Below the pieces are notes generated by a model, which was given only the letters and a program-made list of their open reading frames with translations, made no database searches and was not told the origin of the DNA. A stretch of DNA of 64,000 nt from Escherichia coli (GTDB lineage Bacteria > Pseudomonadota > Gammaproteobacteria > Enterobacterales > Enterobacteriaceae), in the NCBI RefSeq assembly GCF_001677475.2, contig NZ_CP015229.1; one strand, written 5' to 3'. Each line of letters starts with the position of its first letter. Within the stretch, counting starts at the first letter, position 1. Made by a program: the position numbers and the translations under genes. Positions 4,815-38,268 of this stretch are shown piece by piece.

Positions 4815-6356
<1,542 letters not shown>

Positions 6357-6441
6357 CCTTAAAGAACTGTGCTTTGCAGTGCTCACACAGATTGTCTGAT
6401 AGAAAGTGAAAAGCAAGGCGTCTTGCGAAGCAGACTGATAC

Positions 6442-6517
6442 GTCCCCTTCGTCTAGAGGCCCAGGACACCGCCCTTTCACGGCGGTAACAGGGGTTCGAA
6501 TCCCCTAGGGGACGCCA
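6442..6517 (+). tRNA. gltV: tRNA-Glu (anticodon UUC) in the 16S-23S spacer
   Basis: gtccccttcgtctagaggcccaggacaccgccctttcacggcggtaacaggggttcgaatcccctaggggacgcca; 76 nt, cloverleaf with UUC anticodon. Confidence 0.95.
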
Positions 6518-6710
6518 CTTGCTGGTTTGTGAGTGAAAGTCACCTGCCTTAATATCTCAAAATTCATCTTCGGGTGATGTTTGAGATATTTGCTCTTTAA
6601 AAATCTGGATCAAGCTGAAAATTGAAACACTGAACAACGAAAGTTGTTCGTGAGTCTCTCAAATTTTCGCAACACGATGATGAATCGAAAGAAACATCTT
6701 CGGGTTGTGA

Positions 6711-9612
<2,902 letters not shown>

Positions 9613-9709
9613 ACAACGCCGAAGCTGTTTTGGCGGATGAGAGAAGATTTTCAGCCTGATACAGATTAAATCGACAGGTCAGAACATGACGTGTTGATAA
9701 AACAGAATT

Positions 9710-9829
9710 TGCCTGGCGGCCGTAGCGCGGTGGTCCCACCTGACCCCATGCCGAACTCAGAAGTGAAACGCCGTAGCGCCGATGGTAGTGTGGGGTCTCC
9801 CCATGCGAGAGTAGGGAACTGCCAGGCAT
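9710..9829 (+). rRNA. rrfE: 5S ribosomal RNA (rrnE operon)
   Basis: tgcctggcggccgtagcgcggtgg...gggaactgccaggcat; 120 nt. Confidence 0.97.
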
Positions 9830-33865: not shown

Positions 33866-34138
33866 TTAGCGCCTGCCGCGCGTCGACGTATTTGCTGACC
33901 AGCTAAATGACGCTTCAGGATCCGGTTTATAAGCCTGCTTTTTCTTCAATTGGCGGGCTTTTTTCGCTTCAGCCTCACGCTCGACCATTAATTTATCGAT
34001 GTACTCTTTCTTAATGCTGTTGGTTTCGGAGTTGGTCAGTACGCGACCATGCGCAATCCGCGCCCGATCCAGCAGTGTTTTAAGTTCACGCTGCTCGCGT
34101 TCAGTCATCTCTTTTTGGGTAATACGCGGGAGTGCCAT
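33866..34138 (-). CDS. yjbD: Uncharacterised small protein YjbD
   Basis: 90-aa ORF between rluF and lysC, as in K-12. Confidence 0.8.
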   Translation of the reverse strand: MALPRITQKEMTEREQRELKTLLDRARIAHGRVLTNSETNSIKKEYIDKLMVEREAEAKKARQLKKKQAYKPDPEASFSWSANTSTRGRR

Positions 34139-34390
34139 GATGTTGCCCTCAGTGAGCCAGAGAGTTCAGTGTACGGGAATTCGTTTGCGAGCAGAACTGA
34201 TAATATTCATTTTGCCTTCTCTTAACTATTTATCTCTTTCGATAATTAATTAGAGATGCAGATAAAAAAATTAAAGGCAATTATTCTCCGATAAAGACGC
34301 TGGTTAACAGAGTACAGGCTCGTTTATTGATGAGCATAGTGACAAGAAAATCAATACGGCCCGAAATATAGCTTCCAGGCCATACAGTAT

Positions 34391-35740
34391 TTACTCAAAC
34401 AAATTAAAATGCAGCTTCTGCACCACCTGCTCGGCATCTTCGCCGGGCACCAGGAAGCACAGGTTATGGCTGGATGCGCCGTAACAAATCATGCGAATGT
34501 TGAACGGTTCCAGTACGCCGAATACCTCTTTGCCAACGCCGCAGGCTTTTGACAGGTCATTGCCAATCAACGCGACCAGTGCCAGACCTTCTTCCACCTC
34601 CACCCGGCACAGTGCGGAAAGCTCCATCAGCAGAGATTGCGTCAGCAACGTATCGCCAGTGGAGGTTGAACCGGTGGTATCAAGGGTTAATGCCACGCTC
34701 ACTTCTGACGTGGTGATTAAGTCTACCGAAATATTATGCCGCGCGAGGATGCCGAAAACTTCTGCGAGGAAGCCGCGAGAATGCAGCATATTCAGGCTGT
34801 GCAAAGTGAGCAGAGTCTGATTGCGACGAAGCGCCAGCGCGCGGAACAGCGGCGGATTTTCAGTTTTATTGCACACCAGCGTACCACCTGCGCGTGGGTC
34901 TTTGCTGGAGCCGACAAAGACCGGGATATCGCTGCGTACTGCGGGTAGCAACGTTGCCGGATGCAGTACTTTTGCACCAAAAGTTGCCATCTCTGCCGCT
35001 TCGGCAAACGCGATTTCATCAATGCGTTTTGCTGCGGAAACTACGCGTGGATCGGTGGTGTAGATGCCCGGGACGTCGGTCCAGATATCAACACGAGATG
35101 CGTGTAAAGCCTCCGCCAGCAAGGCTGCCGTATAATCGCTGCCGCCACGGCCAAGCGTCGTTGTACGACCTTTATTTTCGCTACCGATAAATCCCTGGGT
35201 GATCACTAAGCCTTCATTGAGGCGTGGGAGCAGCTGCAGAGCGGCCAGTTCCGCCAGCGCGGCTACATCTGGCTCTGCACGACCAAATCGGTCGTTGGTA
35301 CGCATCACTTTACGTACATCAAACCACTGTGCCTGAACATCGCGTTCGCGCAGGATCTCAACAAACAGCAGGGTCGACATCAGCTCGCCGTGGCTGACCA
35401 GTTCATCTGTCAGCGCCGGAGACGTTGCCAGCGCCGCTGCTTCTGCCAGAACAGTAATGTTCTCCAGCAGACGTTCAATCTCTTCACGGATAACGTTCGG
35501 GTAACGCAGACGTTCCAGAATGGCAAACTGGATGTTGCGGATAGCGTCGAGTTTTTCGAATCGCTCGCCAGGTTCCAGCCCTTCCGCTAAAGCGACCAGC
35601 AGATTAGTGATACCAGCAGAAGCCGAGAGGACTACTAAACGCACGTTGGCATCAGAAAGCACAATATCAGCGCTGCGGTTCATGGCGTCAAAATCAGCTA
35701 CGCTGGTACCGCCAAATTTGGAGACAACAATTTCAGACAT
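34391..35740 (-). CDS. lysC: Lysine-sensitive aspartokinase III
   Basis: 449-aa ORF recognised as LysC (amino-acid kinase domain plus ACT domains). Confidence 0.95.
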   Translation of the reverse strand: MSEIVVSKFGGTSVADFDAMNRSADIVLSDANVRLVVLSASAGITNLLVALAEGLEPGERFEKLDAIRNIQFAILERLRYPNVIREEIERLLENITVLAEAAALATSPALTDELVSHGELMSTLLFVEILRERDVQAQWFDVRKVMRTNDRFGRAEPDVAALAELAALQLLPRLNEGLVITQGFIGSENKGRTTTLGRGGSDYTAALLAEALHASRVDIWTDVPGIYTTDPRVVSAAKRIDEIAFAEAAEMATFGAKVLHPATLLPAVRSDIPVFVGSSKDPRAGGTLVCNKTENPPLFRALALRRNQTLLTLHSLNMLHSRGFLAEVFGILARHNISVDLITTSEVSVALTLDTTGSTSTGDTLLTQSLLMELSALCRVEVEEGLALVALIGNDLSKACGVGKEVFGVLEPFNIRMICYGASSHNLCFLVPGEDAEQVVQKLHFNLFE

Positions 35741-36050
35741 AACTACCTCGTGTCAGGGGATCCATTTTCAGCCTTGGCACAAGGGAAGAGCGGAAGACGG
35801 GTGGGCGCAGAGCGATACTTCGCTACTATTTTCACCCAGAAGTGCTCCACCACTTGCGAAACGCCCGACTGCGAACGCTTCTGGTGACAACCCAGGGGAT
35901 TCAGCCCCTGTAGCCGATGATGAACGTGGCCAGCCGTTCAATCACCTCGGCGATGCACCCCCTCAGGTGTTATCACAGGACTGGCTCCTCCAACACCGTT
36001 ACTTGGGCAACGCGCCTCTTCTGGCCTGCGCTAGCGCAGGTAGTACATTT
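35741..36050 (-). ncRNA. Lysine riboswitch (L-box) in the lysC 5' leader
   Basis: Roughly 300-nt untranslated leader upstream of lysC, whose reverse complement matches the known E. coli lysC leader; boundaries approximate. Confidence 0.8.
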
Positions 36051-36264
36051 ATAAATAAAGGGTGAGCGGGGCGGTTGTCAACGATGGGGTCATGCGGATT
36101 TTTCATCCACTCCTGGCGGTCAGTAGTTCAGCTAATAAATGCTTCACTGCGCTAAGGGTTTACACTCAACATTACGCTAACGGCACTAAAACCATCACAT
36201 TTTTCTGTGACTGGCGCTACAATCTTCCAAAGTCACAATTCTCAAAATCAGAAGAGTATTGCTA

Positions 36265-37914
36265 ATGAAAAACATCAATCCAACGCAGACCGCTGCCTGG
36301 CAGGCACTACAGAAACACTTCGATGAAATGAAAGACGTTACGATCGCCGATCTTTTTGCTAAAGACGGCGATCGTTTTTCTAAGTTCTCCGCAACATTCG
36401 ACGATCAGATGCTGGTGGATTACTCCAAAAACCGCATCACTGAAGAGACGCTGGCGAAATTACAGGATCTGGCGAAAGAGTGCGATCTGGCGGGCGCGAT
36501 TAAGTCGATGTTCTCTGGCGAGAAGATCAACCGCACTGAAAACCGCGCCGTGCTGCACGTAGCGCTGCGTAATCGTAGCAATACCCCGATTCTGGTTGAT
36601 GGCAAAGACGTAATGCCAGAAGTCAACGCGGTGCTGGAGAAGATGAAAACCTTCTCGGAAGCGATTATTTCCGGTGAGTGGAAAGGTTATACCGGCAAAG
36701 CAATCACTGACGTAGTGAACATCGGGATCGGCGGTTCTGACCTCGGCCCATACATGGTGACCGAAGCACTGCGTCCGTACAAAAATCACCTGAACATGCA
36801 CTTTGTTTCTAACGTCGATGGCACCCACATCGCGGAAGTGCTGAAAAAAGTAAACCCGGAAACCACGCTGTTCCTGGTAGCATCTAAAACCTTCACCACT
36901 CAGGAAACCATGACCAACGCCCATAGTGCGCGTGACTGGTTCCTGAAAGCGGCAGGTGATGAAAAACACGTTGCGAAACATTTTGCGGCGCTCTCCACCA
37001 ATGCCAAAGCCGTTGGCGAGTTTGGTATTGATACTGCCAACATGTTCGAGTTCTGGGACTGGGTCGGCGGCCGTTACTCTTTGTGGTCAGCGATTGGCCT
37101 GTCGATTGTTCTCTCCATCGGCTTTGATAACTTCGTTGAACTGCTTTCTGGCGCACACGCGATGGACAAGCATTTCTCCACCACGCCTGCCGAGAAAAAC
37201 CTGCCTGTCCTGCTGGCGCTGATTGGCATCTGGTACAACAATTTCTTTGGCGCGGAAACTGAAGCGATTCTGCCGTATGACCAGTATATGCACCGTTTCG
37301 CGGCGTACTTCCAGCAGGGCAATATGGAGTCTAATGGTAAGTATGTTGACCGTAACGGTAACGTCGTGGATTACCAGACTGGTCCGATTATCTGGGGTGA
37401 ACCAGGTACTAACGGTCAGCACGCGTTCTACCAGCTGATCCACCAGGGAACTAAAATGGTACCGTGCGATTTCATCGCCCCGGCTATCACCCATAACCCG
37501 CTCTCTGATCACCACCAGAAACTGCTGTCTAACTTCTTTGCTCAGACCGAAGCGCTGGCGTTTGGTAAATCCCGCGAAGTGGTTGAGCAGGAATATCGCG
37601 ATCAGGGTAAAGATCCGGCAACGCTTGACTATGTAGTGCCGTTTAAAGTGTTCGAAGGTAACCGCCCGACCAACTCCATCCTGCTGCGCGAAATCACCCC
37701 GTTCAGCCTGGGGGCGTTGATTGCGCTGTATGAGCACAAAATCTTTACTCAGGGCGTGATCCTGAACATCTTCACCTTCGACCAGTGGGGCGTTGAGCTG
37801 GGTAAACAGCTGGCGAACCGTATTCTGCCGGAACTGAAAGATGACAAAGAAATCAGCAGCCACGATAGCTCGACCAATGGTCTGATTAACCGCTATAAAG
37901 CGTGGCGCGGTTAA
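36265..37914 (+). CDS. pgi: Glucose-6-phosphate isomerase
   Basis: ORF 36259..37914 begins at a TTG; first ATG at 36265 ([13 protein letters not shown]) gives 549 aa. Confidence 0.95.
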
Positions 37915-37934
37915 TTTAAAAACCTTAATAACAA

Positions 37935-37960
37935 TGCCGACGTTATGTCGGCATTTTTTT
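37935..37960 (+). terminator. Rho-independent terminator after pgi
   Basis: tgccgacgttatgtcggca hairpin followed by ttttttt. Confidence 0.85.
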
Positions 37961-38268
37961 ATCAGATAAATCCCCTTGTCTGTGATTTAACGGAAATCAT
38001 ACCGTGAGGTTAATCCTAAAATAGATTTTTAATCGTTGTTTATTTCGGAAAATACGCAGATTAATTACTTTTGTTTTTATTTTAAGTTTATGATTTTTAT
38101 TGTTATTTAAATATAAGTTGAAACTTATATTTGATATTCATTCCAATTATCCTAAAACGCCATCGCTAATTCCCCGCGCCGTAATTCGCATGCTTTAGTT
38201 GTGTATACTCGATCCCGCCCGAAATGTTTTTGGGTAAATCTCCATTCATTCAATGAAGGGAAATTGTT

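What the first reader, a model, noticed from the sequence alone, without database searches (positions are those of the whole stretch)
35741..36050. Lysine riboswitch in the lysC leader sharing an intergenic region with the divergent pgi promoter
This is a known element, noted because the roughly 300-nt structured leader (minus strand) and the pgi promoter (plus strand) share one 520-bp intergenic region, so the 5' end of the riboswitch transcript and pgi promoter elements are close together.
Basis: established knowledge. Interest (0 to 1): 0.15.

Follow-up and report, generated by a model that had tools for sequence, protein, structure and literature searches.

The report
Known E. coli lysC lysine riboswitch
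This is the well-studied lysine-sensing RNA switch in front of the E. coli lysC gene; it sits back-to-back with, but does not overlap, the pgi promoter, so the finding is correct and ordinary.

Summary
Confirmed and already known. The window is E. coli chromosome. Rfam's Lysine riboswitch model (RF00168) matches the minus strand at 36028..35832, full length, at 99.5 bits (threshold 30, E 1.9e-26). RefSeq annotates a riboswitch at the same place, and the 524-bp lysC-pgi spacer is present in 5425 of 5426 complete E. coli genomes. The pgi start site is A36229. The two start sites are 183 bp apart and point away from each other. About 55 bp of unconserved DNA separates the two control regions, so they share the spacer but do not overlap. 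Folding and covariation in 52 enterobacterial leaders support the published mechanism: lysine stabilises P1, which hides the ribosome-binding site and exposes a C-rich stretch to Rho and RNase E. Without lysine, that stretch pairs with the 3' side of the aptamer. Side observations: a covarying 5' hairpin ahead of P1; precise absence of the riboswitch at the same lysC-pgi junction in Citrobacter, some Enterobacter, Xenorhabdus and some Yersinia; and a lysC paralog outside E. coli that carries a conserved 'half-riboswitch' leader.

The parts
34391..35740 (-). lysC coding sequence (lysine-sensitive aspartokinase III, 449 aa), the regulated gene
   Evidence: ORF. RefSeq annotates lysC at the same position in an identical E. 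coli sequence.
35741..36046 (-). lysC 5' UTR (leader), 306 nt, from TSS G36046 to the base before the AUG
   Evidence: Published numbering G309 = G of the AUG (PMC10946432). All five published positions fall on matching bases.
36025..36040 (-). P0: 7-bp hairpin (+7..+22, CCUGCGC-UA-GCGCAGG) immediately 5' of P1, outside the Rfam model
   Evidence: Seen in alignment A1. All 7 pairs change on both sides; 82.7% of cells are paired against 10-59% when slid; 39 double-change cells against 12.4+/-2.8 in shuffles.
35832..36028 (-). Lysine riboswitch aptamer (+19..+215): P1 (+23-29 with +205-211) and P2-P5 around a five-way junction
   Evidence: RF00168, 99.5 bits. P1 is invariant and 100% paired; P2, P2b and P3 covary in 52 leaders.
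35808..35828 (-). Small expression-platform hairpin (+219..+239), present in both predicted conformations
   Evidence: Folds. Only 61.6% paired across relatives, so it is weakly conserved. Its reverse complement explains the terminator-like hit on the + strand.
35777..35816 (-). C-rich, G-poor stretch (+231..+270; 50% C, 17% G): published rut region and 3' strand of the anti-P1/anti-sequester helices
   Evidence: Composition. The rut site at ~+240 is described in PMC10946432. Pairing with +190..+214 is 94% and 87% conserved.
35794..35797 (-). RNase E cleavage Site1 (+250..+253, UCUU), also part of the rut site
   Evidence: Positions from PMC10946432. Bases verified in the window.
35746..35784 (-). 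SD-sequestering hairpin: +263-269 (CCUUGUG) pairs with +295-301 (CACGAGG), which contains the Shine-Dalgarno GAGG at 35749..35746; extended by +271-275 with +289-293
   Evidence: Found by folding. 85.4% paired across 52 leaders, but the sequence is nearly invariant, so covariation cannot test it. Retained in riboswitch-less relatives.
35683..35738 (-). Published Rho-dependent termination points at the start of lysC (G309=35738, G349=35698, U354-357=35693..35690, A364=35683)
   Evidence: PMC10946432, mapped onto the window.
36050..36081 (-). lysC core promoter: -35 TTGACA (36081..36076), 17-nt spacer, A/T-rich -10 region TTTATTTATA (36059..36050; hexamer TTATTT at -12..-7)
   Evidence: Position relative to the TSS is read from the sequence. 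Across 30 Enterobacteriaceae loci the -35 is 100% and the -10 region 92% identical. The simple scanner missed it because the -10 is non-consensus. The hexamer assignment is inference.
36092..36106 (-). Conserved dyad box ATGAAAAATCCGCAT (-60..-46 from the lysC TSS), a T-N11-A motif; candidate binding site for the LysR-type regulator ArgP
   Evidence: Identical or 1 mismatch in 32 loci from many Enterobacteriaceae genera (E. coli and three 3-mismatch variants not counted), always 10 nt from TTGACA, with or without the riboswitch. Assignment to ArgP is inference. ArgP control of lysine-pathway genes is stated in PMC6254735.
36122..36138 (-). Second, partly conserved upstream motif TTATTAG-N5-CTACT (-92..-76 from the lysC TSS)
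   Evidence: Conservation trace and alignment. Function unknown, possibly the distal part of the same regulator footprint (inference).
36139..36193 (.). Unconserved DNA between the lysC upstream elements and the pgi -35
   Evidence: The wider segment 36107-36193 averages 0.45 identity, against 0.74-1.00 for the promoter modules, and carries indels between genera.
36194..36264 (+). pgi promoter and 5' UTR: -35-like ATCACA (36194..36199), 18-nt spacer, -10 TACAAT (36218..36223), TSS A36229, 36-nt 5' UTR
   Evidence: Promoter scan. TSS mapped 36 nt upstream of the ATG, with sequence ...GCGCTACAATCTTCCA (PMC2759082).
36265..37914 (+). pgi coding sequence (glucose-6-phosphate isomerase), the divergent neighbour
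   Evidence: ORF. RefSeq places the start at the ATG at 36265.

Best explanation
The interval is the 306-nt leader of the E. coli lysC mRNA and contains the lysine riboswitch. Transcription starts at G36046 from a TTGACA-N17-TTATTT promoter and runs away from pgi. A short 5' hairpin (P0) comes first, then the five-helix aptamer. When lysine is bound, P1 (+23-29 with +205-211) is held closed. The downstream C-rich stretch (+231..+270) is then single-stranded, and CCUUGUG (+263-269) pairs with CACGAGG (+295-301), burying the Shine-Dalgarno sequence. Translation initiation is blocked. The exposed C-rich stretch loads Rho, which terminates at the start of lysC, and exposes RNase E Site1 (UCUU, +250-253), so mRNA levels fall. 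Without lysine, the G-rich 3' side of the aptamer (+190..+214) pairs with that same C-rich stretch (anti-P1/anti-sequester). This frees the SD and hides the Rho and RNase E targets, so lysC is expressed. Upstream, a conserved T-N11-A box at -60..-46 probably gives a second, promoter-level lysine control through ArgP. The pgi promoter is an independent unit 183 bp away on the other strand. Shown here: the aptamer match, the coordinates, both alternative pairings and their conservation, and the promoter geometry. Taken from the literature: lysine binding and the roles of Rho and RNase E. Inferred: the ArgP assignment and any role for P0.
For: RF00168 full-length match, 99.5 bits. The same feature is annotated in RefSeq. 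The spacer is present at >=80% coverage in 5425 of 5426 complete E. coli genomes, at >=99% identity in 5420. The TSS and all published positions map onto matching bases. The unconstrained MFE (-125.6 kcal/mol) is the anti-P1 (ON) fold and the P1-forced (OFF) fold is -113.2, as expected for a ligand-stabilised OFF state. In 52 enterobacterial leaders the OFF structure is 86.5% paired against 40-46% in slid controls, with 35 pairs changed on both sides. The ON helices are 94.3% and 86.9% paired. No intrinsic-terminator-like site lies on the lysC strand of the leader, which fits a translational/Rho/RNase E platform. The mechanism is established experimentally for this exact sequence (PMC10946432). 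The pgi TSS is mapped (PMC2759082), and the two promoter modules are separately conserved with unconserved DNA between them.
Against: Nothing contradicts it. The limits are these. The sequester helix and P1 are nearly invariant in sequence, so covariation neither supports nor refutes them. The anti-P1 helices are supported mainly by G-C/G-U changes, with only two single-sequence double changes. In my predicted ON fold, Site1 (+250-253) lies in an internal loop rather than in a fully paired stretch as the published figure legend describes, so my ON model may differ in detail from the published one. I could not read Caron et al. 2012. Thermodynamic folds ignore tertiary contacts and co-transcriptional kinetics.
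Confidence: 0.97

Rival explanations
1. The riboswitch and the pgi promoter are functionally coupled. The shared spacer would let lysC leader transcription, its regulators or its DNA interfere with or co-regulate pgi, through promoter overlap, a shared operator or supercoiling coupling.
For: The genes are divergent neighbours in almost every Enterobacterales ortholog locus with enough flank, so the arrangement is old. The TSSs are only 183 bp apart, a distance at which divergent transcription can in principle couple through supercoiling.
Against: The core promoters do not overlap; the -35 hexamers are 112 bp apart. The DNA between the two conserved modules is poorly conserved, at 0.45 identity with indels, which argues against a shared operator. 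The riboswitch acts on RNA transcribed away from pgi. In lineages that lost the riboswitch or gained insertions, the pgi promoter and 5' UTR stay about 90% identical while the lysC-pgi distance ranges from 276 to 879 bp, so pgi control tolerates any spacing.
Confidence: 0.05
2. The E. coli element works like the Bacillus subtilis lysC L-box, as a transcriptional attenuator in which lysine binding forms an intrinsic terminator in the leader.
For: It has the same aptamer family and the same regulated gene. A hairpin exists at +219..+239.
Against: No intrinsic-terminator-like site is found on the lysC strand of the leader. The only such hit in the leader is on the opposite strand, and the +219..+239 hairpin is followed by CUGCGCCC, not a U-run. 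Published in vitro transcription gives full-length product with or without lysine unless Rho is added (PMC10946432).
Confidence: 0.02
3. The Rfam match is a chance or decayed similarity and the leader is no longer a working riboswitch.
For: Related genera do carry riboswitch-less lysC leaders and a paralog with a decayed-looking half aptamer, so loss does happen in this family.
Against: E = 1.9e-26, full-length, with an intact P1 and junction motifs that are invariant across 52 leaders. There is direct experimental work on this sequence (PMC10946432).
Confidence: 0.01

Closest known systems
E. coli K-12 lysC lysine riboswitch (Rfam RF00168; Caron et al. 2012; Ghosh et al. 2024, PMC10946432)
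   Same: It is this element. It has the same gene and the same numbering (AUG at +307-309, Site1 UCUU at +250-253, C-rich rut near +240, Rho stops at G349, U354-357 and A364), and the sequence is identical in many E. coli genomes.
   Different: Nothing of substance. The window's LysC differs from my recollection of the K-12 protein by a residue near the C-terminus (HFNLFE vs HSNLFE; from memory, not tested). The covarying P0 hairpin ahead of P1 is not mentioned in the text I could read.
Bacillus subtilis lysC L-box (lysine riboswitch with an intrinsic-terminator platform)
   Same: It has the same aptamer family, the same ligand and the same regulated enzyme, and is also OFF when lysine is bound.
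   Different: The B. subtilis platform is a terminator/antiterminator, a general statement made in PMC10946432. The E. coli leader has no terminator on its strand. It uses SD sequestration plus Rho and RNase E instead.
E. coli thiM (TPP) and btuB (AdoCbl) translational riboswitches
   Same: They are leader RNAs that hide the SD when ligand is bound, with a secondary loss of mRNA.
   Different: In those, mRNA loss is only a consequence of blocked translation. In lysC the OFF fold itself exposes RNase E and Rho sites (PMC10946432).
Back-to-back divergent sigma-70 promoter pairs in E. coli
   Same: There are two outward-facing promoters in one spacer, each with its own conserved core elements.
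   Different: There is no evidence here of a shared regulator site or overlapping hexamers, unlike tightly overlapping divergent pairs.

Membership tests
Lysine riboswitch (Rfam RF00168, L-box) | Covariance-model score at or above the family's gathering threshold, over the full model | tested here: met
   99.5 bits against 30, model positions 1-182 of 182, E 1.9e-26; repeated on the whole window.
Lysine riboswitch (Rfam RF00168, L-box) | Five helices (P1-P5) around a junction, kept by compensatory changes in relatives | tested here: met
   In 52 enterobacterial leaders, P2 has 5 pairs changed on both sides, P2b has 7 and P3 has 9. P1, P4 and P5 are 98-100% paired. Overall 86.5% are paired against 40-46% in slid controls.
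Lysine riboswitch (Rfam RF00168, L-box) | Conserved junction and core nucleotides (AGAGG-GC after P1; GG-G before the P1 3' strand) | tested here: met
   C23-G32, G34, C35, G196, G197, T198, G202, C205-T207 and G211 are invariant in alignment A1 and match upper-case consensus positions in the cmscan alignment.
Lysine riboswitch (Rfam RF00168, L-box) | Located in the 5' UTR of a lysine biosynthesis or transport gene, on the sense strand | tested here: met
   The aptamer is at +19..+215 of the lysC leader, on the same strand as lysC.
Lysine riboswitch (Rfam RF00168, L-box) | Expression platform with two mutually exclusive pairings that link P1 formation to gene output | tested here: met
   The anti-P1/anti-sequester pairing (+190-214 with +244-268) competes with P1 and with the SD sequester helix (+263-269 with +295-301). 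Both pairings are conserved, but compensatory changes are few.
Lysine riboswitch (Rfam RF00168, L-box) | Direct, selective binding of L-lysine and lysine-dependent repression | not testable with these tools
   Reported for this sequence in the literature: lysine-dependent Rho termination and reporter repression (PMC10946432).
Back-to-back divergent promoter pair | Two TSSs on opposite strands, transcribing away from each other, with non-overlapping core promoters | tested here: met
   lysC TSS at 36046 (-) and pgi TSS at 36229 (+); -35 hexamers at 36081..36076 and 36194..36199.
LysR-type (ArgP) regulated promoter | T-N11-A dyad upstream of the -35, conserved in relatives | tested here: met
   ATGAAAAATCCGCAT lies at -60..-46, 10 nt from TTGACA, and is conserved in many Enterobacteriaceae genera. 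Note that the loci were chosen by this box, so its 0.99 identity there is circular.
LysR-type (ArgP) regulated promoter | Binding of ArgP to this DNA and lysine-sensitive activation | not testable with these tools
   PMC6254735 cites Marbaniang and Gowrishankar 2011 for ArgP control of lysine-pathway genes. I could not read that paper, so the site assignment is inference.

The most novel reading that the evidence does not exclude
The published riboswitch model may be incomplete at its edges, in three ways. (1) The covarying 5' hairpin P0 (+7..+22) may be a functional part of the leader, for example shielding the 5' end so that RNase E attack depends on the riboswitch-gated internal sites. (2) The aptamer plus anti-P1 strand (+23..~+252) may behave as a removable module. 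It is cleanly absent in several enterobacterial lineages that keep the promoter, the ArgP-like box, a 5' hairpin and the SD-sequestering hairpin, which would imply that the sequester hairpin has a role of its own. (3) A derived half-riboswitch leader on a lysC paralog may be a new regulatory RNA.
Probability: 0.3. Interest if true: 0.35.

Novelty: already known. Interest (0 to 1): 0.1.

Why it matters
For the window itself it matters little. This is a textbook, experimentally dissected regulatory RNA that genome annotation pipelines already mark, and its position next to pgi has no demonstrated consequence. The practical value of the check is a precise coordinate map that reconciles the window with published numbering: TSS, P0, aptamer, rut/RNase E site, sequester helix, both promoters and a candidate regulator box. 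It also shows that the two promoters are separate units. The comparative by-products are of modest interest to riboswitch specialists because they give natural 'deletion mutants' of a well-studied switch. These are the repeated clean loss of the riboswitch at a conserved lysC-pgi junction and the unannotated half-riboswitch leader on a lysC paralog.

Tried and rejected
(1) A long-range pairing between the 5' end (+3..+8, ACUACC) and the SD region (+300..+305, GGUAGU) appeared in every single-sequence fold. Across 52 leaders it is only 69.6% paired against 35-51% in slid controls. It competes with P0 and lies in poorly aligned columns, so I treat it as not supported.

(2) My first forced-P1 fold used the wrong register, 23-29 with 204-210. 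It was corrected to 205-211; ignore the -101.9 kcal/mol value.

(3) The terminator-like site on the + strand at 35811-35824 is simply the reverse complement of the +219..+239 platform hairpin followed by the A-rich J-region. Nothing suggests a + strand transcript there.

(4) The ORFs in the spacer, 36062..36265 (+, 67 aa) and 35520..36065 (+, 181 aa), lie upstream of the pgi TSS or antisense to the leader, in DNA that is unconserved or conserved as RNA structure. I reject them as genes.

(5) The promoter scanner did not report the lysC promoter because its -10 (TTATTT) lacks the required A2 and T6. I placed the promoter from the published TSS and from conservation instead.

(6) Caron et al. 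2012, Marbaniang and Gowrishankar 2011 and Rodionov et al. 2003 are not held in the library. RNase E Site2 coordinates, the ArgP footprint and the earlier phylogenetic survey could therefore not be checked.

(7) A literature search for riboswitch loss in Salmonella or Citrobacter found nothing relevant.

(8) TGTGA/TCACA repeats around the pgi -10 and -35 have the wrong spacing or orientation for a CRP site. I judged this by eye and ran no formal scan.

Full report
OBSERVATION. An Rfam scan of window 34000-38000 gives one strong hit. RF00168 (Lysine riboswitch aptamer) matches the minus strand at 36028..35832 over model positions 1-182 of 182, at 99.5 bits against a gathering score of 30, E = 1.9e-26. 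The whole-window scan repeats it. The flanking ORFs are lysC (35740..34391, minus strand, 449 aa) and pgi (ATG at 36265, plus strand), so the intergenic region is 35741..36264, 524 bp. That region is 100% identical to many E. coli chromosomes. It is present at >=80% coverage in 5425 of 5426 complete E. coli genomes, and 5420 of those are >=99% identical. RefSeq annotates 'riboswitch' at exactly the Rfam coordinates, between lysC and pgi.

COORDINATES AGAINST THE LITERATURE. Ghosh et al. 2024 (PMC10946432) number the leader from the TSS and state that G309 coincides with the AUG. That puts the A of the AUG at +307, makes the 5' UTR 306 nt, and places the TSS at G36046. With this origin the window reads AUG at +307 and UCUU at +250-253, their RNase E Site1, which they also count as part of the rut site. 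It also reads 50% C and 17% G over +231..+270, their C-rich rut region 'around position 240'.

ANATOMY OF THE LEADER (positions from the TSS; window = 36047 - position).
- +7..+22 is a 7-bp hairpin, which I call P0. It lies just 5' of P1 and outside the Rfam model.
- +19..+215 is the aptamer, with P1 formed by +23-29 (CCAGAAG) and +205-211 (CUUCUGG).
- +219..+239 is a small hairpin.
- +231..+270 is the C-rich stretch.
- +263-269 (CCUUGUG) can pair with +295-301 (CACGAGG), which contains the Shine-Dalgarno GAGG (window 35749..35746).
- Alternatively, +190..+214, the G-rich 3' side of P5/P1, can pair with +244..+268.
The two alternatives are mutually exclusive: the second breaks both P1 and the sequester helix. 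The unconstrained minimum-energy fold of +1..+312 (-125.6 kcal/mol) is the anti-P1 form. Forcing P1 gives -113.2, and forcing P1 plus the sequester helix gives -111.8. A switch whose OFF state needs ligand and tertiary contacts to be stabilised should look like this.

COMPARATIVE TEST. I aligned 51 riboswitch-bearing orthologous leaders with the window (alignment A1). On A1, the OFF structure (P0, the Rfam aptamer pairs, the platform hairpin and the sequester helix) is 86.5% paired against 40-46% when partners are slid. 35 pairs change on both sides, and no shuffle reaches the observed values. Covariation is concentrated in P0, P2, P2b and P3. P1 is invariant. The sequester helix is 85% paired, but its sequence is nearly fixed (CTGACACGAGG), so covariation cannot test it. 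The ON helices are 94.3% and 86.9% paired, varying mainly by G-C/G-U changes. P0 tested alone is 82.7% paired against 10-59% slid, with 39 double-change cells against 12.4+/-2.8 in shuffles. The structural model is therefore supported, strongly for the aptamer and P0 and by conservation of pairing for the platform.

MECHANISM. The following is established for this exact sequence in the literature (PMC10946432). Lysine binding gives the OFF fold, which sequesters the SD. The OFF fold exposes RNase E sites that the anti-P1 stem hides in the ON state. The same single-stranded region acts as a rut site, and Rho/NusG-dependent termination at G309 rises from 31% to 56% with lysine. No intrinsic-terminator-like site lies on the lysC strand of the leader, so this is not a Bacillus-type attenuator. 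One detail differs from the published description. In my predicted ON fold, Site1 sits in an internal loop flanked by the two anti-P1 helices rather than inside a continuous duplex. I could not read Caron et al. 2012 to compare.

THE SHARED SPACER. The lysC promoter reads TTGACA (36081..36076), a 17-nt spacer, then TTATTT within TTTATTTATA (36059..36050). The simple scanner missed it because the -10 is non-consensus. The pgi promoter is ATCACA-N18-TACAAT (36194..36223). Its TSS was mapped by 5' RACE and earlier work to an A 36 nt upstream of the ATG, in ...GCGCTACAATCTTCCA (PMC2759082), which is window 36229. The start sites are 183 bp apart and diverge, and the -35 hexamers are 112 bp apart. 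Identity to E. coli across 30 Enterobacteriaceae loci was:
- pgi 5' UTR: 0.89
- pgi core promoter: 0.74
- lysC -35: 1.00
- lysC -10 region: 0.92
- segment 36107-36193: 0.45, with indels
Within that last segment only TTATTAG-N5-CTACT (36138..36122) is partly conserved. A 15-nt dyad, ATGAAAAATCCGCAT (36106..36092, -60..-46), lies 10 nt from the -35 in every Enterobacteriaceae ortholog I examined, with or without a riboswitch. Its 0.99 identity is circular, because those loci were selected by the box. It has the T-N11-A form of LysR-type regulator sites. ArgP is reported to mediate lysine repression of lysine-pathway genes (PMC6254735), and promoter-level control of lysC is noted in PMC10946432. 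Assigning the box to ArgP is my inference. In sum, the two promoters are separate conserved modules with about 55 bp of free DNA between their control regions. 'Close together' is true only in the loose sense of sharing a spacer.

WHAT THE RELATIVES ADD.
(a) Nearly every ortholog (LysC >=73% identical) with enough flank has pgi divergent upstream. The distance between the two ATGs ranges from 276 to 879 bp, apart from the two Mangrovibacter loci, where pgi lies about 5.6 kb away.
(b) About 21 orthologous loci gave no nhmmer hit to the aptamer. They come from Citrobacter werkmanii, C. braakii, C. youngae and other Citrobacter, some Enterobacter, Phytobacter, Trabulsiella, Dryocola, a Buttiauxella MAG, five Xenorhabdus, Yersinia thracica and Y. 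artesiana. The 13 of them scanned with Rfam gave no RF00168 hit at gathering, while a distant Pseudoalteromonas lysC scored 98.6 bits. Aligning ten short spacers with E. coli shows that they keep the pgi promoter, the dyad box, the -35/-10, the first ~20 nt of the leader and the last ~55 nt including the sequester hairpin. They lack exactly +23..~+252. The riboswitch is present in other Enterobacterales families and in Alteromonadales, so these are losses. Yersinia holds both states (box 382 nt from the ATG in Y. aleksiciae, 180 nt in Y. artesiana and Y. thracica), so there was more than one loss.
(c) Many genera also carry a second lysC-like gene (~63% identical, not next to pgi). Its ~190-nt leader is highly conserved and homologous to the P3-P4-P5 and sequester parts of the lysC leader, but it lacks P1, P2 and the junction motifs. 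Rfam finds no Lysine match even at E<=10. This leader is absent from all E. coli genomes.
None of these features is in the window.

VERDICT. The finding is correct in observation and interpretation, and it describes a known, annotated, experimentally characterised element. Novelty: already known. Interest is low (0.1). The side observations on relatives are the only parts a specialist might not expect.

Noticed in passing
window 36025..36040 (-): A 7-bp hairpin (P0) lies at +7..+22 of the lysC leader, just 5' of P1 and outside the Rfam model. All 7 pairs covary across 52 enterobacterial leaders. It is not mentioned in the text I could read. It might be a 5'-end protecting stem, which would be relevant to RNase E control.
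   Followed up: partly
L003, L009, L030, L031, L033, L035, L038, L045, L049, L052, L027, L062, L068, L074, L075, L079, L083, L098, L114, L115, L118 (lysC-pgi spacers): At the same divergent lysC-pgi junction, these Citrobacter, Enterobacter, Phytobacter, Trabulsiella, Dryocola, Buttiauxella, Xenorhabdus and Yersinia genomes have no lysine riboswitch. In the ten spacers I aligned (Citrobacter, Enterobacter, Phytobacter, Trabulsiella, Dryocola), E. coli +23..~+252 is cleanly missing, while the promoter, the dyad box, the 5' end and the SD-sequestering hairpin remain. Yersinia has both states.
   Followed up: partly
L004, L006, L008, L013, L015, L018, L032, L040, L048, L050, L060, L077, L080, L085, L090, L119 (about 200 nt upstream of the lysC-like gene): A second aspartokinase gene (~63% identical to LysC) in many non-Escherichia genera has a strongly conserved leader homologous to the P3-P5 and sequester parts of the lysC riboswitch leader. 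It lacks P1, P2 and the junction. There is no Rfam hit at E<=10 and no match in any E. coli genome. In L006 the gene lies next to divergent class-III aminotransferase and PLP-decarboxylase genes (Pfam). In L077 the neighbours are different ORFs, which I did not scan.
   Followed up: partly
window 36092..36106 (-) and 36122..36138 (-): A conserved dyad box, ATGAAAAATCCGCAT (T-N11-A), lies 10 nt upstream of the lysC -35, and a partly conserved TTATTAG-N5-CTACT motif lies further upstream. Together they are a candidate ArgP (LysR-type) footprint. This has not been verified.
   Followed up: partly
window 37923..38072 (-): Rfam STnc430 (RF02053, enterobacterial sRNA) matches at 77.7 bits (threshold 47) in the pgi-yjbE spacer, antisense to both genes. 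RefSeq does not annotate it in the identical E. coli region. The same family lies beside pgi in eight of the related loci scanned.
   Followed up: no
window 4815..9827 (+): A complete rRNA operon is present: 16S, a tRNA at 6442..6514, 23S and 5S. A StyR-44 match lies in the spacer at 6595..6703.
   Followed up: no
window 47551..47621 (+): There is a borderline Rfam match to naRNA4 (nucleoid-associated ncRNA, REP-derived) at 62.2 bits against a threshold of 59.5.
   Followed up: no
L005 (Escherichia albertii), lysC leader: The lysC-pgi spacer is 609 bp against 524 bp in E. coli. The extra ~85 nt lies between the promoter and P1, and the P0 sequence is replaced. This may be an insertion in the 5' end of the leader.
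   Followed up: no
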